Part shown: positions 25,207-63,501 of the stretch, in pieces | How positions within the stretch are numbered: the stretch's first letter is position 1 | Layout of the letters: each line of letters starts with the position of its first letter | IMG/VR virus record: IMGVR_UViG_3300032677_000006 | DNA length: 64,000 nucleotides | Strand: one strand, 5' to 3' | Source of the DNA: a virus | Notes under the pieces: generated by a model | Database searches by the model: none | Told to the model about the DNA's origin: nothing | What the model saw: only the letters and a program-made list of their open reading frames with translations | Position numbers and translations under genes: made by a program

Positions 25207-25247
25207 AATGTAGACAAAGGCTGACCAGGCGTCAACCTTAAATTTTA
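25207..25247 (-). promoter_or_regulatory. Sigma70-like early promoter (TTGACG-N17-TACATT), probably leaderless
   Basis: Reverse strand reads TAAAATTTAAGGTTGACG..TACATTcaagggcATG. Confidence 0.75.
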
Positions 25248-26378
25248 TCTAGCCACCTTTTTGACCAACTCGATGACCTCAGCGTGGCTGGCCGCCGCCA
25301 GTACGTCGCATACCGTGCGCCCCGGGCGCGGCGGGCAGTAGCGGGGGAAGGTGCCGCCGTAGGTGAAGCAAGGCGACTGCGGGCAGCACTCGGTGTGATG
25401 CACCGGGTAATGGTTTTTGTAGTACGTCACCCGCCGGTCCGGGGACATCGGACCCCACAGGCCGACGCAGGGTGTCCCGAACATACCGGCCACGTGCGCC
25501 ATCATGGAGTCGGGCGAGACCACGACGCTCACGTGCTCCGTCAGCGCCCACAGCTCGCGCAGATTCAGGGCCGTGAAGGCTTCGATGTTGGTCAGCTTGC
25601 GCCGGTTGACTTCTTCCAACAGCGCCCGGGTATACGCCTCCGGAACAAATTCGTCGTAGAGGCACAGCCAGTGCTGCTCCGGGCACGCCTCCGCCAGCTT
25701 GACGGCCATGAACACGCTGTCGTTGACCGGCAGTCCCCGCACCGGGTTGGCGCTGGTGAGCTGGTACAGGCCGATCCGGCGGTCGCGGTACTTGACCAGG
25801 GTGCCCAGTTCGCTGGGAGTGAAAGCCGGGCGGACGCATTTTTTGGCCGCAGGCACGCTGTCGGGGTCGACGCCGATCCGGCGAAACAGGGCGTCCAGCG
25901 GGTGCTCCTGGTCCTGATGCTCGTCCATGTTGACCACCGCCTCAAAGGCCACAAAGTGATCGAACATCTTGACGGTGGCCAGCGCCAGCGGGAACATGTT
26001 CACCGACGCCACAAACGGCAGGTTCCACCAGCACAGATTGTTGCCCGGATCGGTGGCCACATGCACCTGCGCCCCGTGCTCATGCAGGTACTGGGCCAGG
26101 GGCCAGGTCATGATCTGGTCGCCGTAGCCGCCCGAACCGTTGTAGACGAGCACCCTTTGGTTCTTCTTGAGGGCGGCGATGTGAAAGTTTGGGATGCGCG
26201 GGTTGAGCAGCGACACCCGCTGGGTCCGTTGCTGGACCTTGGGGTCCTTCATGATGTTCATCATCTGCGAATGGGTGAACACGTAGGGCCGGTTGGCCTC
26301 GAAGGTGAGCGTCACCCCACCGGCGCTCTTTTTGAAGCCCAGGGTCAAGGGTTCGTTAAACGTGACAAGCTGCATCAT
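25245..26378 (-). CDS. GT9-family (heptosyltransferase-like, GT-B) glycosyltransferase
   Basis: GGYGDQIM, VVVSPDSMMAHVAGMFGTPCVGLWGP, C-terminal Cys cluster. Confidence 0.85.
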   Translation of the reverse strand: MMQLVTFNEPLTLGFKKSAGGVTLTFEANRPYVFTHSQMMNIMKDPKVQQRTQRVSLLNPRIPNFHIAALKKNQRVLVYNGSGGYGDQIMTWPLAQYLHEHGAQVHVATDPGNNLCWWNLPFVASVNMFPLALATVKMFDHFVAFEAVVNMDEHQDQEHPLDALFRRIGVDPDSVPAAKKCVRPAFTPSELGTLVKYRDRRIGLYQLTSANPVRGLPVNDSVFMAVKLAEACPEQHWLCLYDEFVPEAYTRALLEEVNRRKLTNIEAFTALNLRELWALTEHVSVVVSPDSMMAHVAGMFGTPCVGLWGPMSPDRRVTYYKNHYPVHHTECCPQSPCFTYGGTFPRYCPPRPGRTVCDVLAAASHAEVIELVKKVAR

Positions 26379-35031: not shown

Positions 35032-35200
35032 TCCAGCCTAAATACACGGTATCCTGTCGAAAGTGGCTCCGCCAGGCGCGCGTAACCAGGCCGCGCAGCC
35101 AGACTGGCGGCAACTTCGTAGCCAAGGGCATCCAGGGGCGGTCCACTGTGGACACCCGACAGACCTCTTTACCGTTTACCGACAGGGCGTACAGTGTCAT
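34997..35200 (-). CDS. Small hypothetical protein
   Basis: 67-aa ORF, GTTCTT motif upstream. Confidence 0.45.
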   Translation of the reverse strand: MTLYALSVNGKEVCRVSTVDRPWMPLATKLPPVWLRGLVTRAWRSHFRQDTVYLGWNERSTTGTAAN

Positions 35201-42130: not shown

Positions 42131-42160
42131 AATCTGATCCTACTCTGTTGTATTTAGGCC

Positions 42161-42349
42161 ATGGACTTGAATAAATCTATAGCGACGGCTCAGCAGTTCA
42201 CCGCGCCCAGGCCGGACGGGCTGCCGGTGATCGACCGCTCCGCCCAGGCTGACTTCGGTCTGGACATGGCCCGCCGCGCCGCCCAGCGCAGCCAGCAGCC
42301 GGTGGACGCGCCCAAGCCGATGCCGCCCATCGTGCCGATGGCCAGTTAA
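42161..42349 (+). CDS. Small hypothetical protein
   Basis: 62 aa; GTATTTA 4 nt upstream. Confidence 0.6.
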   Translation: MDLNKSIATAQQFTAPRPDGLPVIDRSAQADFGLDMARRAAQRSQQPVDAPKPMPPIVPMAS

Positions 42350-43086
42350 ACCCCAAGAACGGCAGCTGGTCTGACTTCCAGCTTCGGATTCTGAAAAAAG
42401 TTTGGGCTGTCGAGTATGGCCAGCGACCGTTCGCGCTCCCAGGCGCAGTAGATGTTGGACCGAACCCGGGCCAGCAGCGAAGGCCGAACTCCGTCGTACC
42501 ACTTGAAATGGTGCGTATCTCCAAAATTAAGCGGTATTTCCATGCTGTTGTGGTGTCCCGACCGGATCGTCACGTCCCCTCGGTGCAGTCCAATCTTGTG
42601 GACATTTGCGCCGGACCATTTGGTCATGGAAGTCGCCCACGGGAATTGCGCATCCAGACTGACGTCCAGCTTCACCGGCGGCAGCGCCCCTTCCGGCGCA
42701 AACCGGTCCACAAACCGGCTGCGCACGACCTTATAGCCTTCCTGCTGGGCCTGGGCGGCCATGTCCGGAAAGGATTTGCCGCCGTAGTCGTGCAGTTCGT
42801 CCAGGTCGGCCACCAGAAACCATTCGTCAGCCGCCACGAACTCCCGGCGCGCCCGGTTGAGCGCCACTGTTTCGTCGGTTGAGTTGTACAGGTTGTACGT
42901 GCAAAACTGGTTTGGCCGCACGTGCCAGTCGAGTCCCTGGCTGTGTTTCGCCAGCTCAGCGTAGACGGGGCACTTAATCCCTCGCCACGCGGCGTACACG
43001 AACCGCGTCACTCCGCGCTGCTGGTAGTACTTCAGCAGGAACGGGAGCAGGTAGGTGCGGTCGTATACGGGTATTATCAGCGTCAT
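42346..43086 (-). CDS. GT-A glycosyltransferase (GT2-like, Glyco_tranf_2_4/GT92-type)
   Basis: LLPFLLKYYQQRGVTRF, WFLVADLDE (DxD), GHH, HHFKW. Confidence 0.85.
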   Translation of the reverse strand: MTLIIPVYDRTYLLPFLLKYYQQRGVTRFVYAAWRGIKCPVYAELAKHSQGLDWHVRPNQFCTYNLYNSTDETVALNRARREFVAADEWFLVADLDELHDYGGKSFPDMAAQAQQEGYKVVRSRFVDRFAPEGALPPVKLDVSLDAQFPWATSMTKWSGANVHKIGLHRGDVTIRSGHHNSMEIPLNFGDTHHFKWYDGVRPSLLARVRSNIYCAWERERSLAILDSPNFFQNPKLEVRPAAVLGV

Positions 43087-43832
43087 ACTCCTATTTGACT
43101 TGCCGGTTCACTTTTGCACTTTGGGTCGCTCAGGTAATCCGGTGTTTCCAGCAGGCTCAAGGCTTTAGCCTGCTCCCAGGCCCAGTTGATGTGCGCGGCC
43201 AGCTGGCGCTCGTGCCTGCTCTTCAAGATTTCCTTTATGCCGCTGACCCACTTAAAATGATGGGTATACCCAAACGGAAAGCTCACCTCGTCGCACTCAT
43301 GGTGACCGCTGCGGATGGGCAGGCCGCCCTGGCATAGACTAACCTTAAGGTAGCAGGCTCCCATCCAGCGGGTAAACTGGGTCATGGTCGGAAACTGCTC
43401 GTCTAACGTCCGCTCCGGCTGGATGACCGGCAGCGCGCCGTCAGCGGCAAACCGGTCCCTAAACTCGCCTTGAACGCAGCGAAAGCCCGCCCTCTCCGCC
43501 ATGGCCGCAGCCTCCGCCAGGCTTTTCCCGTCGTAATAATGAAATTCATCCGCATCCGCCAGCACGTACCATTCTTCCGGCTCGACAAATTCGCGCCTGA
43601 TTTCGTTGAGGCCATCCGTTTCGCTGTAAGCGTAGTCTGACTCGGAGCACAGCACGGTCGGTCGCACGTGCCAGTCCAGCGCGCCGCTGAGGGCGGCAAC
43701 CTGAGCGTACACCGGATGACGGATGCCGTTGCACAGCGCGTAGACAATTCGCGTTACGCCCATCCGCGTGTAGTACCGCAGCACGTACGGCACCAGCTCA
43801 ACCCGGTCGTGCAATGTCAGGATCAAGGTCAC
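43083..43832 (-). CDS. GT-A glycosyltransferase, tandem paralog of 42346-43086
   Basis: YVLRYYTRMGVTRI, WYVLADADE, SGHH, HHFKW; collinear with its neighbour. Confidence 0.85.
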   Translation of the reverse strand: MTLILTLHDRVELVPYVLRYYTRMGVTRIVYALCNGIRHPVYAQVAALSGALDWHVRPTVLCSESDYAYSETDGLNEIRREFVEPEEWYVLADADEFHYYDGKSLAEAAAMAERAGFRCVQGEFRDRFAADGALPVIQPERTLDEQFPTMTQFTRWMGACYLKVSLCQGGLPIRSGHHECDEVSFPFGYTHHFKWVSGIKEILKSRHERQLAAHINWAWEQAKALSLLETPDYLSDPKCKSEPASQIGV

Positions 43833-44659
43833 AGCAGGTACCCCTTGCTTTCGTACACGGCCCGGTTATCCGTCACCCAGCGCGGCAGCGGCGCGTCCGG
43901 CATCCGGTCGAAGATGAAGCCACCTTTAGGGTCCACCTGCCTGCCCAGCCGCCGCATGTCCACCGGCACGTCGCCTTGGAGGGCGTACAGGATCGGCAGC
44001 GTGTGCCGCCCGAAGCAGTGCGAGTAATTTTTGAGTTTGTACTGAACCCGGCCAGGACCTTCCGGACCCAACAAGTAGGAAAAGTGCCAGCCCGCGCGCT
44101 CCAAACGCTTGGCCAGCGGATAGGGGTCGCTCTTGTAGCTGAAGTGTTCAAACGGACGCAGCCGATGCACCGGATACTGGTTGTACAGCGACCCGGGTAC
44201 TAGATAAGGAGCCTTCCAGACTTTGTTGACGCACCCGTAATTCAGGTAGAAGTGAAAGAACGCCAGCTCCAGGCCGACTGCGCCGTCCCGAGGCCGGTAG
44301 TTTAGAATCGTCTGCGCGCTGATGATTTCGTCAGCGTCACAGATGCTAAACACGTCGAATTCCTTTAGCCTTGGCAGCACTTCCTTCAAGTAATCGCGCT
44401 GGTAGTTTTGGCGCGCCCAGGAGGCGGCCTGGGCATCTTCCGGCAGGTTGGGGCAGGGCGGCACCTCTATGTATACAATTTTATCGCGCCACTGCTCGAA
44501 CTCGTCGGCGTGCTCCTGGTAGCTGAGCCGCTTGGGCCTGCCCGCGAAGGTGACCCGGCTCTCCAGCACGTAGAAGCGGTCAACCACGCGGTACATCTCG
44601 TGCAGCCGCAGCTTGAGCAGCTCCAGCTCATTAAGCAGGATGGATGCGTTGATCACCAT
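43829..44659 (-). CDS. GT17-family glycosyltransferase (MGAT3-like beta-1,4-GlcNAc transferase)
   Basis: NELELLKLRLHEM..VDRFYVLES..TFAGRPK, WARQNYQRD, CDADEI, GWHFSY, KLKNYSH. Confidence 0.9.
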   Translation of the reverse strand: MVINASILLNELELLKLRLHEMYRVVDRFYVLESRVTFAGRPKRLSYQEHADEFEQWRDKIVYIEVPPCPNLPEDAQAASWARQNYQRDYLKEVLPRLKEFDVFSICDADEIISAQTILNYRPRDGAVGLELAFFHFYLNYGCVNKVWKAPYLVPGSLYNQYPVHRLRPFEHFSYKSDPYPLAKRLERAGWHFSYLLGPEGPGRVQYKLKNYSHCFGRHTLPILYALQGDVPVDMRRLGRQVDPKGGFIFDRMPDAPLPRWVTDNRAVYESKGYLL

Positions 44660-47379
44660 AGCGGCTCGTCGATCAAAGACAGATACTCGTTGGACCAGTA
44701 CGGGTACAGTCCACCGGCAAAAGCCAGTTCCAGGTTGCGCAGGCTGAAAAGTTTCACCAGCGGTCCTTCGGAGTCCTGGTGCAAGTGGCACGCCTGCGGG
44801 TACAGCCATTCACTCTCCACCTGGTTTATATCCACCAGCGTGGGCAGCATGATTTCCCTGGCGCTGGGGAAGTTAAGCACCACCACGCACTTAAGCCCCA
44901 GCGCGGAAGCCAGGTGCATTGGCCCGCTGACAATGCCTAAAAACCATTCACTGCCGGACATCAAGGCAATGGATTCATCCAGGCTGCGACCGGTGCGGTC
45001 CTCCACCCCGTTCAGGTTGTGGCAGGTCTGGCCTATCTCCACAAAGGACATGTCGGCGCGGTGGGCGTCCACAAACTCCTGGATCACCTTGAAAGTCGAC
45101 GGGTACACTTCGCGCGCCCGGCCATGCACGCGCCGCCGCTGCCACTGGGCGTGCGCCCCGGGTTCAAAATGCAGCACGCAGCGGCCCGGCACCTTGTCCT
45201 GGGGACAGACCACCGTGGCCCGGGGCAGCAAGTCGGCCCGATAGCCCCATGCCCGTTGCAGGCGCTGCATCAAATGGCCGTTGCCCAGGTCGAAGGTCTT
45301 TTGCAAAAAGTCGGAAGACACCGGCGGCCTGCCGTCGTACGGCTTGTACCAGGGGTTGTGCTTGATCAACGTCTCAAACTTGGCATCGGCGTGAAAGATA
45401 TGCGTATAGCCGCCCTGCTCCGTAGAGACCCGGGGCAGGGAGGACATGACCAACATGTCGCCGATGCCGCTCTGGTAATTGGACAGCGCGTAATTGGTCA
45501 AGTCAATGAGCGGCTCTTTCGGTGCCGCTTTCATCCGGCGATAGTAATTCCGGATGTGGTCCACTACTTCGCGGGATTTGCGCTTGTGGCTGGTCCGGCG
45601 CAAGCTGGACCTTGCAACGGTTTCCTGGCGGAACAGCCGGTACGCCAACAGGTCGGCGCTGGCGCAGTCCTCCGCCTCCATGAGCTGGCGAATGTCCACG
45701 TCCGCCGTTTCCAGCAGGCTGCGGTGCCGCTGCCACCAGCCGTAGGTGAAAGCGTAAAACTCCACCTCCGGGCTGGGCACAGAATTGCGCTCCAAATCCG
45801 CCGAGGTATGCGTTCCCGGCATGGCCACTTGTCGGCGCAGGCCATAGAAACAGTCTGCTTCGCACAGCTTGGCCCGCAGAATGCGCTCAACATCCGGCAC
45901 GAAATACGTGTCACCGGGCGTGTAGACAATAACATCAATCGGTTCTGCTGACGTCAGTTTGGCGATGTCCGCCAGTGTGTTGCTGCCTGACAGCTGCCAG
46001 GGCGGCCAGGTATTGGACGCCTGCTCGTTTACCACTTCCGGATGCACGTGCCAGAACAGGCGGAACATCACGCGATTAACGGCAGTGTCCAAGGCGTCCG
46101 TGTCCAAGGCGTCCGTGTAGCGAAAAGTCTTGGCCAGGTTACAGCAGGGCACGGTGGCGCTCCAGGAGCCTGCCAGGGTGTTCAAGTAGGCAATCACTGG
46201 AATCTTAACTGCCTGCGCCAGGTGGAGGAAGGCGGTGTCCACGGTTATCAACAGGTCAGCCGCGTCCATCAGGGTCAGGAAATCAGTCAGCGTGGACGCT
46301 TTGACGTCATCCAGCCAGACTACCGCCGATCCGTACTTGGTGGCGATCCATTCCCGCAGCCGGACGGCGTGCGGAAACGGGCTGGACTTGCCTTGCAGGG
46401 CCACCAGGATCGTGGGCGTGCGGTTGCGCAGGTGAAGCTTGGCCAGCTCCAGTTCGCCCGCCAGGTCACGGCCATCCAGCACCAGCGGCAGCTTTCCGCG
46501 CAAAGGCAGCAGGCCCAGCGCGGCCCAGGGTTCTTCACAGTAGCTCCGGCACCTGTAGTCCATCGTGAAATCACGGGTACAGGGCTGCATGACCACCACT
46601 TCGGTATACCGTGTCGACGCCCATTCCAGCGCCGGTTGCGTCAAGTCGAACTTACCGGGATAAATGACCGGATTCCAGTAGCTGACCCAGGCCGCCGCAT
46701 CCGCAAAGTCCTGGCTGATCACCACGTTGGGCTTTTCGCCGGTAGCGTCGAACAAATGCTTGAAGATCGGCAGCACGTTCAGCAAGTCACCGTACCGGCC
46801 TAAAACCAGGTAGCAGCGGATGCTGTACTTTATCTCTGGCGGGAAAGGCCCGACCTTGAACGGGTGAGTAATAAGTCCTATCCGGTAGCTTAAACGCTTC
46901 GTCTGAATCAGCGTAATCGAAGGCACAAACTGTTCCGCGAAGGTACGCTCATTTCCCTCAGCGTTGTAGCGGATCAGACCCAGCGCAGAGCGGAAAAAGG
47001 CGAAGCAGGCGGCATTGTCGTCCGGCTGCTCGACGCCGGAAGCGCTGCTGACCAGGTGGAGACTGTTGGTGACTGCCCGCATGTGAAAGTCGATGTAGTC
47101 GGGGTCGTACCAGTAGTTTGGCAGCCAGGGGAAGCACCACTCGGCCTGGGCCAGCTCCAGGGCGGCGTTCTTAAGCTCCTGGATGCTGCCGCCGGACTCC
47201 ACCACCTTTACCTCCGGCGGCAGGCTTATGGCGCGTCCGCTGCCGTTGATGACGATCAAGCTTTTGAGCGGCCAGGTTTGCCGGATAAAGCAGAAGGCCG
47301 CGTTCATTGCGTTTTCCTTCAGGTCATCCGGTCCGATGACCATGAGTCCGTTTACCGAGGGTTGTTCAGGCCACGCCAT
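44653..47379 (-). CDS. Multidomain glycosyltransferase: GT2-like + GT9-like + degenerate GT-A + second GT9-like
   Basis: CFIRQTWPLKSLIVIN; LGRYGDLLNVLP..LITVDTAFLHLA; VYTPGDTYF; GIGDMLVM..FLGIVSGPMHLASALG. Confidence 0.8.
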   Translation of the reverse strand: MAWPEQPSVNGLMVIGPDDLKENAMNAAFCFIRQTWPLKSLIVINGSGRAISLPPEVKVVESGGSIQELKNAALELAQAEWCFPWLPNYWYDPDYIDFHMRAVTNSLHLVSSASGVEQPDDNAACFAFFRSALGLIRYNAEGNERTFAEQFVPSITLIQTKRLSYRIGLITHPFKVGPFPPEIKYSIRCYLVLGRYGDLLNVLPIFKHLFDATGEKPNVVISQDFADAAAWVSYWNPVIYPGKFDLTQPALEWASTRYTEVVVMQPCTRDFTMDYRCRSYCEEPWAALGLLPLRGKLPLVLDGRDLAGELELAKLHLRNRTPTILVALQGKSSPFPHAVRLREWIATKYGSAVVWLDDVKASTLTDFLTLMDAADLLITVDTAFLHLAQAVKIPVIAYLNTLAGSWSATVPCCNLAKTFRYTDALDTDALDTAVNRVMFRLFWHVHPEVVNEQASNTWPPWQLSGSNTLADIAKLTSAEPIDVIVYTPGDTYFVPDVERILRAKLCEADCFYGLRRQVAMPGTHTSADLERNSVPSPEVEFYAFTYGWWQRHRSLLETADVDIRQLMEAEDCASADLLAYRLFRQETVARSSLRRTSHKRKSREVVDHIRNYYRRMKAAPKEPLIDLTNYALSNYQSGIGDMLVMSSLPRVSTEQGGYTHIFHADAKFETLIKHNPWYKPYDGRPPVSSDFLQKTFDLGNGHLMQRLQRAWGYRADLLPRATVVCPQDKVPGRCVLHFEPGAHAQWQRRRVHGRAREVYPSTFKVIQEFVDAHRADMSFVEIGQTCHNLNGVEDRTGRSLDESIALMSGSEWFLGIVSGPMHLASALGLKCVVVLNFPSAREIMLPTLVDINQVESEWLYPQACHLHQDSEGPLVKLFSLRNLELAFAGGLYPYWSNEYLSLIDEPLW

Positions 47380-47995
47380 AAGGGTATTCTCGCATCATGC
47401 TTAAACGCTGATTCTGGGTTAAGGCTCCGAAGTGGTGCAGCGGCTTTAGCCGCTCTGGATCGTACCACGGCATGTCTGCTATCCAGTTCGAGTCCAAAAA
47501 GGAAATCCGGCGGGCCACCGCAGGAAACTCGTTGAGCAGCCCCTTAATGGTGTTCTGCTCCCACTTAGGCCCTAAAGCCGCCCCGTAGCGGTCGTCGTCC
47601 TTGACGTCTCCGCACCGGCTAAGCGTAGGTAAAAACCAGTCGGTCCAGGCACACTTCTTAACCGCCAGCACGCAGGCGCACAGGCCGTTCCAGTCGGAGG
47701 CTCCCAGCAGGTCAAACTGAAGTTTGTCGCCCAAGTCGTCCACCAGCGCAAACGGACGAAGCAGCAGGCAGTCGGCGTCAATCCACACCGCCCAGTCCCC
47801 ATCCTGTAAATCCGACAGCGTCGTTTGGAGGGCGGCTATTTTGTTCCAGGACGGATGCACCCCTGGGTCCAATAACTCCGTGTATACGTCCAAGCCAACA
47901 CCCATGGCCGCCGCGTGCGTCCGCAGCGACTTGGCACACTGATCGCCCACCTGAGCGTAGCCCGCGTCGTATAGCGTAAGCAGCTTCACGTTCAT
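47366..47995 (-). CDS. GT34-like (GMA12/MNN10) glycosyltransferase
   Basis: HPSWNKI, WAVWIDADCL, DWNGLCACV, WEQNTI, HHFG. Confidence 0.8.
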   Translation of the reverse strand: MNVKLLTLYDAGYAQVGDQCAKSLRTHAAAMGVGLDVYTELLDPGVHPSWNKIAALQTTLSDLQDGDWAVWIDADCLLLRPFALVDDLGDKLQFDLLGASDWNGLCACVLAVKKCAWTDWFLPTLSRCGDVKDDDRYGAALGPKWEQNTIKGLLNEFPAVARRISFLDSNWIADMPWYDPERLKPLHHFGALTQNQRLSMMREYPYGVA

Positions 47996-48777
47996 AGCTC
48001 GGCAACTTCCGACCGAATAAGTCGGCTGCTGGCGCTTTCGTCCAGGTTGGTGTAGTCGCGGTGAATGCCTTCCCAGTAATCAAAGCGCATCTCCCGGCAC
48101 TTGGTGTAGACCGCCATGCCGCGCAGGGTATGGTCATCCTTGCCGTGGTCCATGAAAACAGCTTCACCAACCCGTTTACAGCCAAAGGACGCGAAAGTTT
48201 CGTCCAGCCCCCTCAGATTAAAGAAAGTGCAACTGGTCGCGTCCCACGGCGACGTCGTGACCGGGCAGTGGATCAGCGGCTCGTCATTTGGCCCGTAGAA
48301 TCCAGATTCCACGACAATGATGCCGCCGGTCTGGGTCGCGCCCACGACGGCAGATATGCCATTGATTGGATACCGCAGGTGGTACAGGACGCCCATGAAC
48401 AGCACGGTGCGGAACTGGTTGTCCCGATCCAAGCTATACACGGACTTTTCCCGGATCGTCAGCTTGGACCCGCGTAGTTCGCGCATCAGGCCAATGCCTT
48501 CGCTGATGTTGTTATCAATGCCGGTGACTGGCTCGATGCCGTTGTCCTCCAGCCAAAAACTGAACATGCCGTCGCGACAGCCTATGTCGAGGGCCGGACC
48601 TTTAAGCAGCTTGCGCGCGTGCAAATCGTTCAGCTGCTCCTTGATCCAGTTCCAGGATTTCTCCAGTCCGAGACTGTGGCCGTGGGTGACGATGCTGGTG
48701 CCCGGCACTTCCATGGTGTGGTACCACTTAACCTTGTTCACTCTGACCCGCAGGGCTTCTTCGTTTAGGGTGTCCAT
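47992..48777 (-). CDS. SAM-dependent methyltransferase (CmoB/DUF1698-like)
   Basis: KWYHTMEV, ALDIGCRDGMFSF, VTGID, VLFMGVLYHLRYP. Confidence 0.85.
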   Translation of the reverse strand: MDTLNEEALRVRVNKVKWYHTMEVPGTSIVTHGHSLGLEKSWNWIKEQLNDLHARKLLKGPALDIGCRDGMFSFWLEDNGIEPVTGIDNNISEGIGLMRELRGSKLTIREKSVYSLDRDNQFRTVLFMGVLYHLRYPINGISAVVGATQTGGIIVVESGFYGPNDEPLIHCPVTTSPWDATSCTFFNLRGLDETFASFGCKRVGEAVFMDHGKDDHTLRGMAVYTKCREMRFDYWEGIHRDYTNLDESASSRLIRSEVAEL

Positions 48778-50870
48778 GTGTCTTTAATGTTGTGTATTCC
48801 GGCGACCGCTCCGGCTACGAGCCTTCGCTTTTGGTAGTCGCGCTGGATAAAGCACTCGCCGTTAAAGGACAGCGCCTGGGTGACGGGCGAGAAGCGCTCC
48901 AGGTACTCCAGGCCGTAGGTCCGCGCCAGCTCCAGGCCGACGCGCATGTCCCAGGGCTTGTCGGTGTAGATTCCGCTTTTCCAGGCGGCAACCACTTCCT
49001 TGGTCCGGTAAATGGCGAAGCATCCGTTGGGAAACAGCGTCCACTGCTCGCGCGGCAGCCACTCGTCGCGCAGGGAGTAAATGTGGGCACCGGTCACCCG
49101 GTTATACTCGCGCACAATCAAGCGGCATATCGTGCGCACCCCGGGACCGGCAAATTGAGTGTGAAAGGGCACCGGGGTGCCTGCCAGCAAAAAGTCCGGG
49201 TTGTGGGCCAGCGCCTCGCGCAGCAGGCGCTCGTCCCAGGCCCCGCCTTTGACCCGGCAGTCGGGTTCAATGGGCATGAAAAACTCGGCGTCCAACTGTT
49301 CCGCCACTTTGATCACCTCGTTGAAAATACCAATGCCGGTAACGTGGGTGTTGGCTCCGCACCTGATCGGCTCGGCCAGCAGGTGCTGCGGCTGATAATC
49401 CGGGGTCTCGCTGACGTAATGCACCGGGAACGTCGGGGGATTGGCGCTTAAATTGCGGAAAAACACGTCATTGTGCCCGACTTCCGGCGGCGGCAGATAG
49501 CAGATACTGACCAGGCGCGGTTTACCGTGGATCAGGAGCGGAACGGAGGGCAGATCGGGCCGGGCCACGGAAAGGAAGGCTTCGCGGATGCTATTCTCCC
49601 ACAGCGTAAGCTCGATCCAGGGACAATGAAAGACCACGTTCTCCACCCGGCCCGAGCATTCCCACTTGGGCCTTCCGAAGTGTATGGACGGCGTGTTGGT
49701 CGCCCGGTTCAGGTGCAAAATGGCCGTGTCGGCACAGACTAGCAGTTTCGCATTTTCCAGCAGCAGCAGAAAATCCGCAAAGTTGTCCAACCGTACCTCA
49801 GAAATGTCTACAACCGACCAGCCCCATTCCCGGCAGAGTTCGGCCAGCAACTTTTGCACCCAGGCAGCCTCAGCATCGGTCGGCGGCGAGGAATGGCTTT
49901 TTAAGCAGGTGACCACGTACGGCGAGTCGGGGTTGAACCGGTCGAACACCGCCGTCTCGGCGGTCGCGTTTCGACGGTCAAACACCAGCGGCAGCTTGCC
50001 CCACTGCTCCAGGTAGCCAAGCTTCTCCCACTGGGCTTTCAGAAAGTTAGCGCCGGTCTTGCGATTTTTAGACGTTCCAAAAAACATGCAGTTGGTCGCC
50101 TTAAGCCCGGTGCCCTCGACTTCCTTTACCGCCGATTCGGCGTCGTGAAGGCTGCCTTGAAACAACACTGGCTCCACGTAGCTTACCCGTTCCAGTATGG
50201 CGGCAAACTCCGGGCAGACCATCATTTTGGGCGCGATGCCGCTGCGCAGAAAGAGCGCCCGGCAAACCGGCAGCACGTTAATGATGTCACCGATGCGCCC
50301 CAAATTTACGATTACTGAGCCGTCCGGCTTGGGCGACGCGACCGTCAGCTTGGGCGCTTCCGCGTCTCGGACCTTGGTCTCCGACTTAACGTGGTGGGCC
50401 AGGACGCGGTCGGAATGCACCGCTACCGGGGTTCCCAACTGACCCAGAAACAGGTGCTCGTAGCCGTGGTCGTCATAACGAATCTTGCCCAGAGCTGCCT
50501 TGGCGTAGCCGCAGAAGCGCCGGTCCTGGCCATACAGCAGCACGTTTGCGCCGTTGGCTTTGCCCAGCAGGGTGTCGAGGTATTCAGGCGCATACCAGGC
50601 GTCCGGCAGCCAGTTAAAAATCCACTCGCCAGTGGCCAGCGCCAGCGCCTGGTTGCGCAATTCGCCGTAGGGCAGAGGGAGACCGACCACTTCCTGAATA
50701 TCGGCGTTCGGCGGAGCCAGGGCGACACCGGTGCTGTTAACCACGATCAACTCTTTTACCGGCCAGGTCTGGCGAATAAAGCAGTAAATCGAGTTTAGCG
50801 CCGCGTCCCGTAAATCACAGGGGCGCACCACCATTACCGCCGAGACAAAACGATGTTCAGGCCATGCCAT
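48765..50870 (-). CDS. Multidomain glycosyltransferase: GT2-like + GT9-like + GT-A-like; paralog of 44653-47379
   Basis: MAWPE..CFIRQTWPVKELIVVN; LGRIGDIINVLP..LVCADTAILHL; FMPIEPDCRV..NGCFAIY..PWD. Confidence 0.8.
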   Translation of the reverse strand: MAWPEHRFVSAVMVVRPCDLRDAALNSIYCFIRQTWPVKELIVVNSTGVALAPPNADIQEVVGLPLPYGELRNQALALATGEWIFNWLPDAWYAPEYLDTLLGKANGANVLLYGQDRRFCGYAKAALGKIRYDDHGYEHLFLGQLGTPVAVHSDRVLAHHVKSETKVRDAEAPKLTVASPKPDGSVIVNLGRIGDIINVLPVCRALFLRSGIAPKMMVCPEFAAILERVSYVEPVLFQGSLHDAESAVKEVEGTGLKATNCMFFGTSKNRKTGANFLKAQWEKLGYLEQWGKLPLVFDRRNATAETAVFDRFNPDSPYVVTCLKSHSSPPTDAEAAWVQKLLAELCREWGWSVVDISEVRLDNFADFLLLLENAKLLVCADTAILHLNRATNTPSIHFGRPKWECSGRVENVVFHCPWIELTLWENSIREAFLSVARPDLPSVPLLIHGKPRLVSICYLPPPEVGHNDVFFRNLSANPPTFPVHYVSETPDYQPQHLLAEPIRCGANTHVTGIGIFNEVIKVAEQLDAEFFMPIEPDCRVKGGAWDERLLREALAHNPDFLLAGTPVPFHTQFAGPGVRTICRLIVREYNRVTGAHIYSLRDEWLPREQWTLFPNGCFAIYRTKEVVAAWKSGIYTDKPWDMRVGLELARTYGLEYLERFSPVTQALSFNGECFIQRDYQKRRLVAGAVAGIHNIKDTWTP

Positions 50871-50887: not shown

Positions 50888-52027
50888 TCAGCTGCCGGTT
50901 CGGAGTAGTTGCAGTCCCGACAGGTACCCATAGACCGCAAAGCTCATTTTTCCCGTGCTGTTGACCGCCGCCGAAACGGCCACGTAGTTCTGACCGGCTA
51001 CAAAAGACGTAGCTGCCGTGTTGTTGACCGTGTGCAAGACAGGAGCACCGCCATTAACTCCAATGTAGACGCTGCTGGTGCCCGAGGCGGCTGCCGAATA
51101 GACGTACAGGGTGTAGCTGCCGGGCGGGATGTTGCGCAGGTTGAACGTGTTGGGCACGGACGGACCGCCTGCGTACGTGTTCAACATGGGATCAAAAGTG
51201 CTCTGGGTGCCTGCCGCCGATGTCAGCGGCGCAACCCGTTCCAAATAAACGACGCTCAGGCTGCGGTCGTAATTCAGCAGCGGAATCAGCGGAGCACTGG
51301 AAAACACCCAACCATACCCGTATCCGTAGCCGCAGGTATGGTCCACCGTTGCCGTATAACTGGCGGGAGTGTAGACATTCCAGTAGTCGCTGGCGGTTTT
51401 GCCGACCTGAGCCGGACCCTGCTTGAGACCCGTGCCGTTAAAATCGACATTGACCAGCAGCTGCGTCGCGTCCGGCGTAAAATAGCGCTTCCCGCCGACC
51501 AGGGTGGCTGCCGTGCCACCACTCAGATCGCGCGGCAGGACGTCAGGAGCGAACCGGATCATGTCGTACTGGCCCAGGACCTCGGCCCCATCTTGCACCA
51601 AAAAGGTTGGATTTAGCCGCAGAGGGTCCAACGGGACGGTGCCGACGAGCACTCCCATCCAGATTTGGCTGGTTTTCGGCGGTCCAACCAGCGCCCCGCG
51701 CGTAACGGGCTGCCCCGTGACCAGCCCGGTGGAAGCCAGGCCACTAAGCGTCACCAGCACGCCCAGGCCGCAGTCAATGGTGACGTTGGTGGCGTACGTG
51801 GCCAGCAGCACCGGGTCTTCCGTGTAAAACTCCGGGAGCGACGTCCATATCCGGCTGACCGTCCCCGTGGCCGGAGCGATGGTGCTCTCTCCCGCCGCCA
51901 GCTGCACGGTGATGCCCAGGTTGACGCTGCCCTCGGCGGTGTACGCGTACAGCAGGGTGGCTGACCGGGAAAACGGCGGTCGAAACTGGGTGACCAGGTT
52001 GATGACCGACTGCGAAAGGTTGCTCAT
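50888..52027 (-). CDS. Virion protein with degenerate M23/LytM-like N-terminus and C-terminal beta-sandwich
   Basis: IAPATGTV..VTIDCGLG..SGLA..VTGQPVTRGALVG..PLDP without Zn ligands; LVNVDFNG..GPAQVG..DYWN..PGSYTLYVY. Confidence 0.65.
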   Translation of the reverse strand: MSNLSQSVINLVTQFRPPFSRSATLLYAYTAEGSVNLGITVQLAAGESTIAPATGTVSRIWTSLPEFYTEDPVLLATYATNVTIDCGLGVLVTLSGLASTGLVTGQPVTRGALVGPPKTSQIWMGVLVGTVPLDPLRLNPTFLVQDGAEVLGQYDMIRFAPDVLPRDLSGGTAATLVGGKRYFTPDATQLLVNVDFNGTGLKQGPAQVGKTASDYWNVYTPASYTATVDHTCGYGYGYGWVFSSAPLIPLLNYDRSLSVVYLERVAPLTSAAGTQSTFDPMLNTYAGGPSVPNTFNLRNIPPGSYTLYVYSAAASGTSSVYIGVNGGAPVLHTVNNTAATSFVAGQNYVAVSAAVNSTGKMSFAVYGYLSGLQLLRTGS

Positions 52028-52893
52028 GAGGGTATCGTCGGTGCGCCGTTAAAGTTGAGGGTGGACGTGTACCGTTCCACCGCTTCCGGGTAAAACGTGG
52101 CTTCCAGGGTCAGCAGCTGGGATTCGGTGTAATTCAGGTCCGACAGCTTGTACCCGGCGCACCAGCACTGCCGCAGCACCCACTTGGTGTGTTCCTCCAT
52201 CTGAGGCAGGGTGGCTGCCGCCGTGGCGGACGGTGCGCCCTGCGGACCAGCGGGCGTGCTGGTGGCCGCGCCCTGGTTCGACTGCCTGGCCGCCTGCTGC
52301 TTCAGCAGGCTGTTGTACTTGGCCACCGCAGCGAGCTGGGCACCGTTTACCTGGCCGGTGGTCGTCGTGCCGCTCAGCCCCTGGACGATATTCTGCATGT
52401 TGCCGCGCAGCAAGCTGACGTTGATGTCGAACCGGCAAGTCGTGCTAAAATTGCTGTCCAGGGTGAAATATCCCTGGGGACTGAGGCCCGCAAACCCGCC
52501 GTAGCGTGCCCCGCGCCCCGCCCGCGTCAGCGCCACCCAGGCGTCCAGCAGGTCCGCCGTGTCACTGCGGTCGGTGCCCTCCCAGGTGTCCACCACAAAG
52601 GTGATTTTAGCGGCTTCCACCGGGTCGTCCCAGTTGGGCATGTTGTACGGCACCGAGTCCCGGCGGAACACTTCCGCCTTGAGCCTGACTTCAGGCAGGC
52701 TGACGCTGCGCACAAACTGGCGCAGCTGCGCGTTGAGCTTGACGTTGGCGGCGCTCTGGATGCCGCCCGCCGCCAGGGTCAGGTCCACCAGGAACAAGTC
52801 CGAGCGCTGCGGTTCCAGCACGCTGGACGTGTTGGCGTCCGTCTGCCGTCCCCAAAGGTTAACCAGGTTCTTATTATCAGCGTCACGCGACAT
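52024..52893 (-). CDS. Tail tube-like protein (gp19/gp48/gp54 family), possible tube initiator
   Basis: EPQRSDLFLV, FVRSVSLP, LRQCW....SDLNY..LTLEATF; shares QRSDL with 58117-58737. Confidence 0.75.
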   Translation of the reverse strand: MSRDADNKNLVNLWGRQTDANTSSVLEPQRSDLFLVDLTLAAGGIQSAANVKLNAQLRQFVRSVSLPEVRLKAEVFRRDSVPYNMPNWDDPVEAAKITFVVDTWEGTDRSDTADLLDAWVALTRAGRGARYGGFAGLSPQGYFTLDSNFSTTCRFDINVSLLRGNMQNIVQGLSGTTTTGQVNGAQLAAVAKYNSLLKQQAARQSNQGAATSTPAGPQGAPSATAAATLPQMEEHTKWVLRQCWCAGYKLSDLNYTESQLLTLEATFYPEAVERYTSTLNFNGAPTIPS

Positions 52894-52912
52894 TTGAGTA
52901 ACTACCTTGAGC

Positions 52913-53890
52913 ATGAACCTTAACTTTACGTATGCCGGAACGGTGGAGCTAAACCAGGACCCGCTGAAACTTGGCCGGTTGAAGGTTCGCGTCCCGCACG
53001 TCTATGGCACCAGCGCCACCGGCTCGGGCTACATCGGCACCGGCGACCTGCCATGGGCCATGCCAGCAGGCATGCCTGCCGGTGGCAGTGCCCTGAGCGG
53101 GGGCTTCTCCCAGATACCGGAGCCGGGCGATCCCGTCTGGGTTCGCTTCCTGGATGGGGAGCCGGAAAAGCCCATCTGGGAGTGGGGCATGCAAACCATG
53201 AACGGGGCGCAGAAACTGAAGCTGCACACCTATGACATCGGCACGCCCGTGGGCAAGCCCAACCGCACCGTCTGGACCCGCTACAGCCACGCCATCGAGA
53301 TGAACGAGGGTTCGCTGATCGCCACCACCAGCGCCGGGTACCGCATTGTTCTGACCGACGACACCGAGGTCGGCTCTTCGGACGGCAACATCATGGTCAC
53401 GACGCCCAACGGCAACTACTGCCAGTTCGACGATCTGGACGACACGGTCAAGTTCAACGTGCTCCAGGACCTGTACTTCAATGTCTACGAAGGCGTGACC
53501 GGCATCTCCAACAGCTTTTCCTGGCAGACCCTGGCCGATGACTTCAGTGTAGACAGCGGCGGCGGCATCGCCCTGACCGCTTTCGACAACATTGACATTT
53601 CCACCGTCGGCGACATCACCATCGACAGCCTGAGCGACCTGAACCTGACCACCGTCGGGGAAATGGTGCTGGGCTTCACCAACCTGACGCTGGGCATTGG
53701 GGCTACCCAGCAGGCCGTTTTGGGCAATTACCTGGTGGAATGGATCAATTCCCTGTTCGTCTGGCTGGCCGTTCACACGCACACCAGCAGCAATCCAGGG
53801 AACCCGACGTCGCCGCCCACGCAGCCCACGTCCTCGATCACCCCGGAGGCCACGCAGCTGCTTTCGCAGACCGTCACCGTGGCAGACTGA
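52913..53890 (+). CDS. Baseplate central spike (gp5/gpV/VgrG OB-fold + beta-helix), no lysozyme domain
   Basis: DPLKLGRLKVRVP, LPWAMP, IPEPGDPVWVRFLDGEPEKPIW, C-terminal HTH (His-Thr-His) apex motif. Confidence 0.9.
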   Translation: MNLNFTYAGTVELNQDPLKLGRLKVRVPHVYGTSATGSGYIGTGDLPWAMPAGMPAGGSALSGGFSQIPEPGDPVWVRFLDGEPEKPIWEWGMQTMNGAQKLKLHTYDIGTPVGKPNRTVWTRYSHAIEMNEGSLIATTSAGYRIVLTDDTEVGSSDGNIMVTTPNGNYCQFDDLDDTVKFNVLQDLYFNVYEGVTGISNSFSWQTLADDFSVDSGGGIALTAFDNIDISTVGDITIDSLSDLNLTTVGEMVLGFTNLTLGIGATQQAVLGNYLVEWINSLFVWLAVHTHTSSNPGNPTSPPTQPTSSITPEATQLLSQTVTVAD

Positions 53891-62184: not shown

Positions 62185-62194
62185 GCCCTAAATA

Positions 62195-62233
62195 CAAAAC
62201 GGGGGTCGCTGCACAATGCAACAGCGACCCCCG
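62195..62233 (-). terminator. Intrinsic terminator after 62281-62538
   Basis: Reverse strand CGGGGGTCGCTG-N10-CAGCGACCCCCG-TTTTG, followed at once by a GTATTTA motif. Confidence 0.75.
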
Positions 62234-63446: not shown

Positions 63447-63501
63447 TATGAGCTAAATACGCCCGGGTTTTCCGTTCTTGCGACGTACCTATCACTAGAA
63501 C

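What the first reader, a model, noticed from the sequence alone, without database searches (positions are those of the whole stretch)
42346..50870. Seven-gene, ~11-GT-domain glycan assembly operon embedded among virion genes
Seen: seven overlapping - strand genes: a GT2+GT9+GT-A fusion (701 aa), a methyltransferase, a GT34-like, a GT2+GT9+GT-A+GT9 fusion (908 aa), a GT17, and two tandem GT-A paralogs. None has an obvious signal or TM segment. No flippase, polymerase, nucleotide-sugar synthesis or base-hydroxymethylase gene is present in the window. Known: some actinophages and giant viruses glycosylate virions with their own GTs; DNA-hypermodifying GTs usually sit with base-modifying enzymes; serotype-converting Gtr systems are membrane-bound. 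Inference: a cytoplasmic, phage-encoded pathway building a complex, methyl-capped glycan on virion proteins (glycan shield or adhesion). This is the strongest candidate for an undescribed system here; DNA or host LPS modification remain alternatives.
Basis: partly seen in the sequence, partly recalled or inferred. Interest (0 to 1): 0.85.

Follow-up and report, generated by a model that had tools for sequence, protein, structure and literature searches.

The report
Variable sugar-building island in jumbo phage
A large uncultured phage carries seven tightly packed genes with about ten sugar-transferring domains and a methyl-adding enzyme; all related phages examined have a differently filled island at the same spot, so it probably builds a methylated sugar chain, but what carries that chain (virus particle, host surface or DNA) is still unproven.

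Summary
Seven minus-strand genes (42346-50870) overlap by 4-14 nt. They encode two paralogous multi-domain glycosyltransferase (GT) fusions, a SAM methyltransferase, a GT34-like enzyme, a GT17-like enzyme and two GT-A paralogs. That is 10-11 GT-type domains, and one (the N-terminal domain of the 908-aa protein) has lost a conserved Asp. g5 starts at 44659, not 44809.

New here: all seven related jumbo-phage contigs that span this slot hold an island there, between a baseplate-side gene (up379) and the primase. Each island has a small GT2-like domain (N-dom), at least one methyltransferase and other GTs, but the content differs and two islands are inverted. The C-terminal module of the 908-aa protein belongs to a rare, unnamed GT9-like family (best fold match WaaC, Z 15.2). 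That family also occurs in bacterial glycan islands and in unrelated podoviruses, once directly before the portal and capsid genes.

No hydroxymethylase, TET, nucleotide-sugar or transporter genes were found.

The acceptor is unresolved: virion protein about 0.4, host envelope about 0.3, DNA about 0.07. GT-rich variable islands in T4-like phages are already described (PMC7029224), so this is a new variant of a known kind.

The parts
48765..50870 (-). g1, 701 aa. Three domains: N-dom (GT2-like, 50316-50870, keeps the conserved Asp90), a GT9-like GT-B (about 49581-50315, motifs GRIGD and DTAILHL) and a GT-A (about 48768-49553, motif EPD).
47992..48777 (-). g2, 261 aa. Class I SAM-dependent methyltransferase (CmoB-like core, motif LDIGCRDG).
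47366..47995 (-). g3, 209 aa. GT34-like GT-A with a DAD motif.
44653..47379 (-). g4, 908 aa. Four parts: N-dom paralog (46840-47379, Asp replaced by Asn), a GT9-like GT-B (about 46045-46827), an unresolved middle domain (45580-46044) and the C-module, a divergent GT9-like GT-B (44656-45579).
43829..44659 (-). g5, 276 aa from the corrected start. GT17-like, with a DADE motif.
43083..43832 (-). g6, 249 aa. GT-A (GT2/GT92-like), DADE motif. Paralog of g7.
42346..43086 (-). g7, 246 aa. GT-A of a phage-rich family, DLDE motif. 45% identical to g6.
50888..52027 (-). up379. Conserved flank gene 17 nt upstream of g1, with a degenerate M23-like N-terminal part and a beta-rich, Ser/Thr-rich C-terminal part. 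It served as the anchor of the island slot in relatives and is a candidate baseplate protein.
52024..52914 (-). up296. Conserved flank gene that overlaps up379 by 4 nt. No family match.
42161..42349 (+). Small conserved 62-aa ORF between g7 and the primase, on the opposite strand. It marks the other edge of the island and is co-directional with the inverted islands of L021 and L022.
25245..26378 (-). Separate GT9-like gene (377 aa), 16 kb from the island, next to the helicase. A 59%-identical ortholog is in relative G013 and weaker homologs are in G012 and G010.

Best explanation
The seven genes form one translationally coupled operon of soluble enzymes. Using host nucleotide sugars and SAM, they assemble a methylated hetero-oligosaccharide in the cytoplasm of the infected cell.

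The operon occupies a fixed, fast-evolving slot of a roughly 230-245 kb jumbo myophage lineage. The lineage-wide constant parts are the small GT2-like N-dom and a methyltransferase; I infer that N-dom is the step tied to the conserved acceptor. The GT9-like, GT4, GT34, GT17 and GT-A modules are swapped between relatives and would set the glycan's structure.

Shown: the domain folds, the catalytic motifs, the synteny and the variability. Inferred: the most likely acceptor is one or more phage structural proteins (tail, baseplate or head), O-glycosylated before or during assembly. That would give each phage its own glycan coat, as in mycobacteriophage and chlorovirus virions. The donors (ADP-heptose for the GT9-type domains) are also inferred.
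For: Operon anatomy:
- Gene overlaps are 4-14 nt, and only 17 nt separate baseplate-side up379 from g1.
- No TM segments.
- No transporter, initiating-transferase or nucleotide-sugar genes in the window, and no epimerase or SIS-type (GmhA-like) genes in five related phage records.

Lineage pattern:
- 7 of 7 syntenic relatives hold an island in the same slot, with N-dom plus at least one methyltransferase plus other GTs.
- N-dom is a 34-cluster family found on contigs up to 246 kb. Asp90 is at least 90% conserved, and the domain has a GT2 fold.

C-module:
- It is a complete GT9-type GT-B with an invariant GLGD motif and an SGPMH motif.
- TibC, a protein heptosyltransferase, is the top Foldseek hit.
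- In the SU10-like podovirus L009 the order is C-module, methyltransferase, portal, one gene, capsid.

Against a DNA target: no ThyS or TET partners.

Precedents for phage and giant-virus virion glycosylation by cytosolic viral GTs: Freeman 2023, as cited in PMC12619734; chlorovirus A064R-type GT/methyltransferase fusions (my own knowledge).
Against: - There is no direct evidence for any acceptor.
- The GT9 fold matches the LPS heptosyltransferases WaaC and WaaF slightly better than TibC (Z 15.2 and 13.7 against 12.7).
- The acceptor lobe is strongly basic in 12 of 12 family members, as expected for anionic lipid or LPS, or for DNA.
- The island is inverted in L021 and L022, so coupling to baseplate genes is not conserved.
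- The downstream neighbours are replication genes.
- No shared large neighbour protein was found across loci with the C-module.
- Bacterial homologs sit in low-GC3 glycan islands of unknown target.
Confidence: 0.4

Rival explanations
1. Host-envelope remodelling. The soluble GTs act at the cytoplasmic face of the inner membrane on the host's lipid A-core, on Und-PP-linked O-antigen intermediates or on a host surface protein. Host machinery then exports the altered glycan. The cell's receptor is changed, which blocks superinfection or stops progeny from sticking to debris.
For: - Best structural matches are WaaC and WaaF.
- The acceptor lobe is basic.
- LPS-core GTs are peripheral enzymes that need no TM segment or local flippase (established knowledge).
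- C-module homologs lie in bacterial low-GC3 islands with GT9, GT2, LicD, sulfotransferase-like and methyltransferase genes.
- GT-rich hypervariable islands in T4-like pelagimyophages and cyanomyophages were interpreted this way (PMC7029224).
- The island sits next to fast-evolving baseplate-side genes.
Against: - No integrase or other lysogeny gene was seen in the window, so this looks like a lytic jumbo phage with no lysogenic phase in which a serotype change would pay off.
- There is no ligase, flippase or ABC exporter in the window.
- No ABC-2 permease or initiating phosphoglycosyltransferase lies next to the bacterial homologs.
- In small podoviruses the cassette lies among head genes.
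- Methyl-capped O-antigen systems normally include Wzm/Wzt.
Confidence: 0.3
2. DNA hypermodification. The GTs build a glycan on a modified base of the phage genome to evade restriction and CRISPR.
For: - The island abuts the primase, and the extra GT9-like gene abuts the helicase.
- The basic acceptor lobe could bind DNA.
- Phage DNA can carry multi-sugar glycans (bioRxiv 10.1101/2023.12.21.572611).
Against: - No thymidylate-synthase-type hydroxymethylase, TET/JBP or C5-methyltransferase is in the window.
- None is in five phage records that carry the C-module, two of them at least 93% complete. The TET control search rang nowhere, so that half is weak.
- g2 is a small-molecule-type methyltransferase, not a DNA methyltransferase.
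- None of the listed fold matches was T4 beta-GT or a base-J GT type.
- Ten or more GT domains exceed what I know of DNA glycan pathways.
Confidence: 0.07
3. The product is not attached to a macromolecule of phage or envelope. It is a free or small-molecule-linked methylated oligosaccharide (a cytoplasmic polymethylated polysaccharide or a glycosylated metabolite or peptide) that alters host physiology.
For: - The first GT-B domain (residues 186-505) also resembles natural-product GT1 enzymes.
- Related cassettes carry radical-SAM and B12-radical-SAM enzymes.
- No acceptor gene is evident.
Against: - No scaffold or precursor genes are present.
- The island's fixed place beside structural genes and its strain-level variability fit a surface or recognition role better.
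- I know of no precedent in phages.
Confidence: 0.1

Closest known systems
GT-rich hypervariable islands ('host recognition cluster') of T4-like pelagimyophages and cyanomyophages (PMC7029224)
   Same: T4-like myophages. A non-syntenic island inside or beside the structural module holds several GTs. The function is inferred only.
   Different: Here the island is small (4-8.5 kb), holds no tail-fibre genes and sits between baseplate-side genes and the primase. It is defined by two unnamed domain families (N-dom and the GT9-like C-module) plus an obligatory methyltransferase. It uses GT9, GT4, GT17 and GT34 types rather than GT8.
Mycobacteriophage virion glycosylation (Freeman et al. 2023, cited in PMC12619734)
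   Same: Phage-encoded cytosolic GTs lie next to structural genes. The proposed result is a glycan coat on virion proteins.
   Different: By my recollection of that work (not checked here), those phages use two to four single-domain GTs in actinobacterial siphophages. Here there are 10-11 domains with fusions and methylation. No homology to them was found, and there are no glycoproteomic data.
Chlorovirus and giant-virus autonomous glycan machinery (e.g. PBCV-1 A064R, a GT-GT-methyltransferase fusion; my own knowledge)
   Same: Soluble multi-domain GT fusions plus a methyltransferase, and virus-specific methylated glycans made in the cytoplasm without lipid carriers.
   Different: That is a eukaryotic virus. 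No sequence relationship was shown; giant-virus hits in BFVD are weak fold matches only.
GT9 heptosyltransferases WaaC and WaaF, and the protein heptosyltransferases TibC and Aah
   Same: GT-B fold (Z 12.7-15.2), an N-terminal G-x-G-D motif and a C-terminal (S/D)G-x-x-H-x-A motif.
   Different: Sequence identity is 8-14%. The C-module scores below the Pfam GT9 threshold on its own. It has its own invariant His- and Arg-rich motifs (GNGH, QRLQR, HPRAR, ESEW) and no invariant Cys for a TibC-type iron site. Donor and acceptor are unknown.
ABC-transporter-dependent O-antigen assembly with a methyl cap (WbdA/WbdD type; my own knowledge)
   Same: Soluble multi-domain GTs plus a terminating methyltransferase.
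   Different: There is no Wzm/Wzt, no kinase-methyltransferase terminator and no initiating transferase in the window or next to the bacterial homologs.

Membership tests
CAZy GT9 / Pfam PF01075 | GT-B fold of two Rossmann-like lobes that superposes on WaaC or WaaF | tested here: met
   VIA-align: residues 628-893 match WaaC at Z 15.2 (rmsd 3.4, 228 aligned) and WaaF at Z 13.7. Residues 185-437 match GT9-like PnsB1 at Z about 12.
CAZy GT9 / Pfam PF01075 | Profile score above the curated Pfam threshold (22 bits) | tested here: inconclusive
   Whole g4 scores 38 bits through its first GT-B domain. g1 scores 18.9-21.3 bits and the C-module alone 15.8 bits, both below the cut-off.
CAZy GT9 / Pfam PF01075 | Use of ADP-heptose (or a related donor) with inversion | not testable with these tools
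   Needs an enzyme assay. No heptose-pathway (SIS/GmhA) genes were found in the related phage records.
Bacterial autotransporter heptosyltransferases (TibC/Aah) | Structural similarity to TibC | tested here: met
   TibC is the top Foldseek hit (E 1.5e-5). VIA-align gives Z 12.7.
Bacterial autotransporter heptosyltransferases (TibC/Aah) | Conserved Cys cluster for the iron site (recalled from the TibC structure paper) | tested here: not met
   There is no invariant or near-invariant Cys among 12 C-module sequences.
Bacterial autotransporter heptosyltransferases (TibC/Aah) | Gene adjacent to its acceptor adhesin gene | tested here: not met
   No large neighbour protein is shared across loci that carry the C-module.
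Phage DNA glycan hypermodification clusters | GTs clustered with a 5-hydroxymethylpyrimidine source (a ThyS-type hydroxymethylase, or a C5-methyltransferase plus TET/5mYOX) | tested here: not met
   None is in the window. PF00303 is absent from five related phage records. PF12851 is also absent, but that search had no positive control. The rest of the window's own genome could not be searched.
Serotype-converting Gtr systems | Membrane proteins GtrA (flippase), GtrB and GtrC | tested here: not met
   No hydrophobic 19-residue window scores above 1.63 in any of the seven proteins.
Virion glycosylation systems (mycobacteriophage or chlorovirus type) | Virus-encoded cytosolic GTs located with structural genes | tested here: met
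   Baseplate genes lie immediately upstream. In L009 the order is C-module, methyltransferase, portal, one gene, capsid.
Virion glycosylation systems (mycobacteriophage or chlorovirus type) | Glycan demonstrably attached to capsid or tail proteins | not testable with these tools
   Needs glycoproteomics or glycan staining of virions or of co-expressed proteins.
GT2 (for N-dom) | GT-A nucleotide-binding fold with an acidic DxD-type motif | tested here: met
   Foldseek matches SpsA, CgT and TarP at E 3e-6 to 4e-5 over about 110 residues. Asp90 is at least 90% conserved in 33 sequences. It is lost in g4 (PN instead of PD). The acceptor half is modelled poorly.

The most novel reading that the evidence does not exclude
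A whole lineage of roughly 240-kb jumbo myophages, probably of Gram-negative soil or freshwater bacteria, carries an autonomous, modular virion-glycosylation system. A conserved small GT2-like initiator (N-dom) primes a conserved structural protein. Swappable GT9-like, GT4 and GT-A modules and methyltransferases then build a strain-specific methylated glycan coat. This would be a bacterial-virus counterpart of the chlorovirus and mimivirus glycan machinery, and the GT9-like C-module would be a new family of protein glycosyltransferases.
Probability: 0.35. Interest if true: 0.8.

Novelty: new variant of a known kind. Interest (0 to 1): 0.55.

Why it matters
Glycans on phage particles, or phage-made changes to the host surface, decide who can infect whom and how phages are recognised. 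Very few such systems have been worked out, and I know of none in phages of Gram-negative bacteria or in jumbo phages.

This island gives a compact, testable case:
- Two uncharacterised enzyme families: N-dom (34 clusters) and the GT9-like C-module (141 representative clusters among 1.8 billion).
- A fixed genomic slot with natural module swaps across relatives.
- A recurring need for methylation, met by unrelated methyltransferase families.

Expressing one island with candidate acceptors would show whether large lytic phages coat themselves, their DNA or their host with custom sugars.

Tried and rejected
- INPHARED phage genomes: tblastn with g4, g6 and g5 found nothing.
- PDB sequence searches with g1, g4, up379, up296, the 1119-aa protein, g3 and g5 gave nothing useful.
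- PHROGs gave no function for any of the seven proteins.
- Promoter and terminator scan: no more sites than in shuffled sequence.
- The T4 late-promoter word TATAAATA is absent.
- GTATTTAG occurs four times, each just before a start codon, but it is not conserved in relatives, so it could not be used for timing.
- A common large neighbour protein as acceptor: none is shared across loci.
- The 'moraphage' jumbo lineage with core GTs (PMC12619734) has predicted Bacteroidota hosts and showed no evident link to this lineage.
- ABC-2 permease and Bac_transf genes near the bacterial homologs: none adjacent.
- Nucleotide-sugar genes (epimerase, SIS) in related phage records: none.
The long contigs (up to 246 kb) that carry N-dom homologs could therefore not be fetched.
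- The window's own whole genome is not held.


Full report
**1. What is there**

The window comes from a GC-rich (about 61%) uncultured contractile-tailed jumbo phage with a T4-like mosaic layout. It encodes a T4-type portal, sheath, gp5-, gp26- and gp25-like baseplate proteins, a primase, a helicase, SbcD and a GroES-like protein. Earlier notes on the same genome agree.

The seven minus-strand ORFs of the finding exist as stated. They are packed with overlaps of 4-14 nt. Only 17 nt separate the first one from the upstream gene up379, which in turn overlaps up296 by 4 nt. g5 was listed with a 157-nt overlap, but its GT17 match starts at residue 50. An ATG at 44659 overlaps the g4 stop (ATGGTGA), so g5 is 276 aa. 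The island's GC3 (0.73-0.78) is lower than that of most neighbours (0.83-0.87).

**2. Domains**

- g2 is a class I SAM methyltransferase (PF08003, 1e-10). Its nearest solved structure is CmoB, matched over the Rossmann core only.
- g3 is GT34-like with a DAD motif.
- g5 is GT17-like (6e-23) with a DADE motif.
- g6 and g7 are 45% identical. They belong to a GT-A family that is common in tailed phages (Atlas TM up to 0.86).
- g1 and g4 share their first 400 residues or so at 32% identity.

An AF2 model of g4 (mean pLDDT 64.6; confident for residues 185-445 and 600-908) shows two GT-B domains. Residues 628-893 superpose on WaaC (Z 15.2), WaaF (13.7), a Veillonella GT9 (13.6) and TibC (12.7). Residues 185-437 superpose on the GT9-like NDH subunit PnsB1 and on generic GT-B enzymes at Z about 11-12.6. 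TibC is the top Foldseek hit.

The g1 C-terminus (residues 440-701) is a GT-A by the Atlas structure search (TM 0.52-0.62) and carries an EPD motif.

The shared N-terminal domain (N-dom) was folded separately. Residues 1-105 are modelled at pLDDT 76-89 and match the nucleotide-binding half of GT2 enzymes (CgT, SpsA, TarP, RmlT; E 3e-6 to 4e-5).

The g4 middle segment (residues 446-600) remained at low confidence, so its GT-A assignment is unproven.

Count: 10 supported GT-type domains plus one doubtful. None of the seven proteins has a TM-like hydrophobic stretch.

**3. The island is a lineage feature with variable content**

Two searches of IMG/VR fetched syntenic contigs, one with g4 and one with the flank gene up379. 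The contigs are L002, L010, L020-L022 and L025-L028. All share this order: sheath, tube, baseplate genes, up296, up379, [island], small ORF, primase, GroES-like gene, 1119-aa protein.

Every contig that spans the slot holds a 4.4-8.5 kb island, but with different genes:

| Contig | Island content |
|---|---|
| L010 | N-dom; GT4 fused to C-module; radical SAM; FkbM methyltransferase; GH130-like |
| L002 | N-dom; GT4 fused to C-module; Methyltransf_24; two GT34-like |
| L026 / L027 | N-dom; GT4; DUF5672-like GT-A; a methyltransferase-GT9-GT2-like fusion; Methyltransf_24 |
| L025 | N-dom; a GT2-FkbM-methyltransferase fusion; other ORFs. The island has low GC. |
| L021, L022 | Inverted islands: N-dom; a 554-577-aa protein with a methyltransferase domain; GT2 proteins |

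Sources.

So N-dom and at least one methyltransferase, drawn from several methyltransferase families, are present in 7 of 7 islands. The C-module is in 3 of 7.

N-dom is normally a stand-alone protein of 150-190 aa. There are 34 clusters of it, on contigs up to 246 kb. Only in the window phage and a few relatives is it fused. Its DxD-position Asp (g1 Asp90) is conserved in at least 90% of 33 sequences. g4 has Asn there, so the g4 copy is the degenerate paralog and the g1 copy is not.

**4. The C-module family**

A profile of 12 C-modules finds 141 representative clusters at E < 1e-30 among 1.84 billion representatives. They are stand-alone proteins (about 300 aa) or fusions to GT4, GT9 or other domains.

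Against the PDB by sequence, only GT9 entries appear, and weakly. The family keeps the GT9 N-terminal G-L-G-D and the C-terminal S-G-P-M-H-x-A motifs. It adds its own invariant His/Arg motifs. Its acceptor-side lobe is basic (+5 to +18) and its donor-side lobe acidic in all 12 members.

In bacteria (Verrucomicrobiota, Acidobacteriota and Alphaproteobacteria MAGs) it lies on large chromosomal contigs, in two cases inside low-GC3 islands. Its neighbours there are GT9, a GT2-methyltransferase fusion, FkbM, radical-SAM enzymes, a LicD-cytidylyltransferase, a sulfotransferase-like protein, a GT32-like protein and a g6/g7-like GT-A. In two related Verrucomicrobia it sits next to an RHS-repeat protein. 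No ABC-2 permease or initiating phosphoglycosyltransferase lies nearby.

In unrelated phages it again travels with methyltransferases and GT-A proteins. In the SU10-like podovirus L009 the order is C-module, Methyltransf_24, portal, one gene, major capsid protein. In L005 it lies 8 kb downstream of the capsid gene.

BFVD holds uncharacterised 'GT9', 'RfaF' and 'Aah/TibC' proteins of uncultured tailed phages and of some cyanophages.

**5. What the glycan is attached to**

*DNA* is unlikely. There is no thymidylate-synthase-type hydroxymethylase, TET/JBP or C5-methyltransferase in the window, and none in five phage records that carry the C-module, two of them at least 93% complete (the TET search had no positive control). 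Known DNA-glycan clusters keep these partners next to the GTs. g2 is not a DNA methyltransferase.

*A Gtr-type system* is excluded by the absence of membrane proteins.

Two serious candidates remain.

*Virion proteins.* For this reading:
- The pathway is wholly cytoplasmic.
- It sits beside baseplate genes, and beside portal and capsid genes in a podovirus.
- No lysogeny gene was seen in the window, so the phage looks lytic.
- Mycobacteriophages and giant viruses provide precedents.
- TibC shows that GT9-type enzymes can glycosylate proteins.

*Host envelope.* For this reading:
- The fold is closest to LPS heptosyltransferases.
- The acceptor lobe is basic.
- LPS-core GTs are likewise soluble.
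- The bacterial homologs lie in glycan islands.
- Published accounts read GT-rich variable islands in T4-like pelagimyophages and cyanomyophages as host O-chain modifiers.

Expression timing could not be inferred. The inversion of the island in two relatives shows that co-transcription with baseplate genes is not required.

I rate virion protein at about 0.4, host envelope about 0.3, a free or small-molecule glycan about 0.1 and DNA about 0.07.

**6. Novelty**

GT clusters in phages, and variable GT-rich islands in T4-like phages in particular, are known. No paper or database entry that I could search describes the following:
- this island type with its fixed slot;
- the N-dom family as its constant first gene;
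- the divergent GT9-like C-module family;
- the recurrent recruitment of unrelated methyltransferases;
- the unusually dense fusions of the window phage (three and four domains).

This is a new variant of a known kind, with real experimental promise but an unproven target.

**Limits**

Noticed in passing
window 25245-26378 (-): An eighth glycosyltransferase gene lies outside the cluster. It is a 377-aa GT9-like protein (PF01075, 5.9e-9) next to the helicase operon and divergent from an Ig-domain/tail-fibre-like operon. A 59%-identical ortholog is in relative G013, and 28-31% homologs are in G012 and G010.
   Followed up: partly
window 42161-42349 (+): A small 62-aa ORF lies antisense between g7 and the primase. 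It is conserved at 41-57% identity in relatives. In L021 and L022, where the island is inverted, it lies directly upstream of N-dom and is co-directional with it, so it marks the hinge of the inversion.
   Followed up: partly
window 35038-35045, 42150-42157, 62188-62195, 63453-63460: The word GTATTTAG occurs four times (0.3 expected), each time 3-8 nt before a start codon. It may be a promoter or leaderless-start signal of one gene class. It is not conserved at the matching places in related contigs.
   Followed up: partly
window 50888-52027 (-): up379 has an N-terminal region resembling a peptidase M23 barrel but without the His motifs. It also has a GYGYGYG tract that expands to a Tyr run in L002, and a Ser/Thr-rich beta-type C-terminus. 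It is among the less conserved syntenic genes (34-43% identity).
   Followed up: partly
L010 9986-10549 and 10458-12551; L002 9998-10513 and 10215-12494: In two relatives the N-dom ORF overlaps the following GT4/C-module ORF by 92-299 nt in another frame. These may be separate genes, a frameshift or an assembly error.
   Followed up: no
L012 934-6660 and L013 818-4111: In two Verrucomicrobia MAGs the GT9-like C-module cassette lies next to a large RHS-repeat protein. The two RHS proteins are 76% identical to each other.
   Followed up: no
window, gene not located: One window protein matches Pfam PF17420, 'superinfection exclusion gene product 17' (1.2e-17). Another matches the CxxCxxCC zinc/iron domain PF03692.
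   Followed up: no
window 52907-52914: The divergent genes up296 (-) and the gp5-like hub gene (+) overlap at their annotated 5' ends. Relatives align only from up296 residue 19 at the earliest, so its true start is probably further downstream.
   Followed up: no
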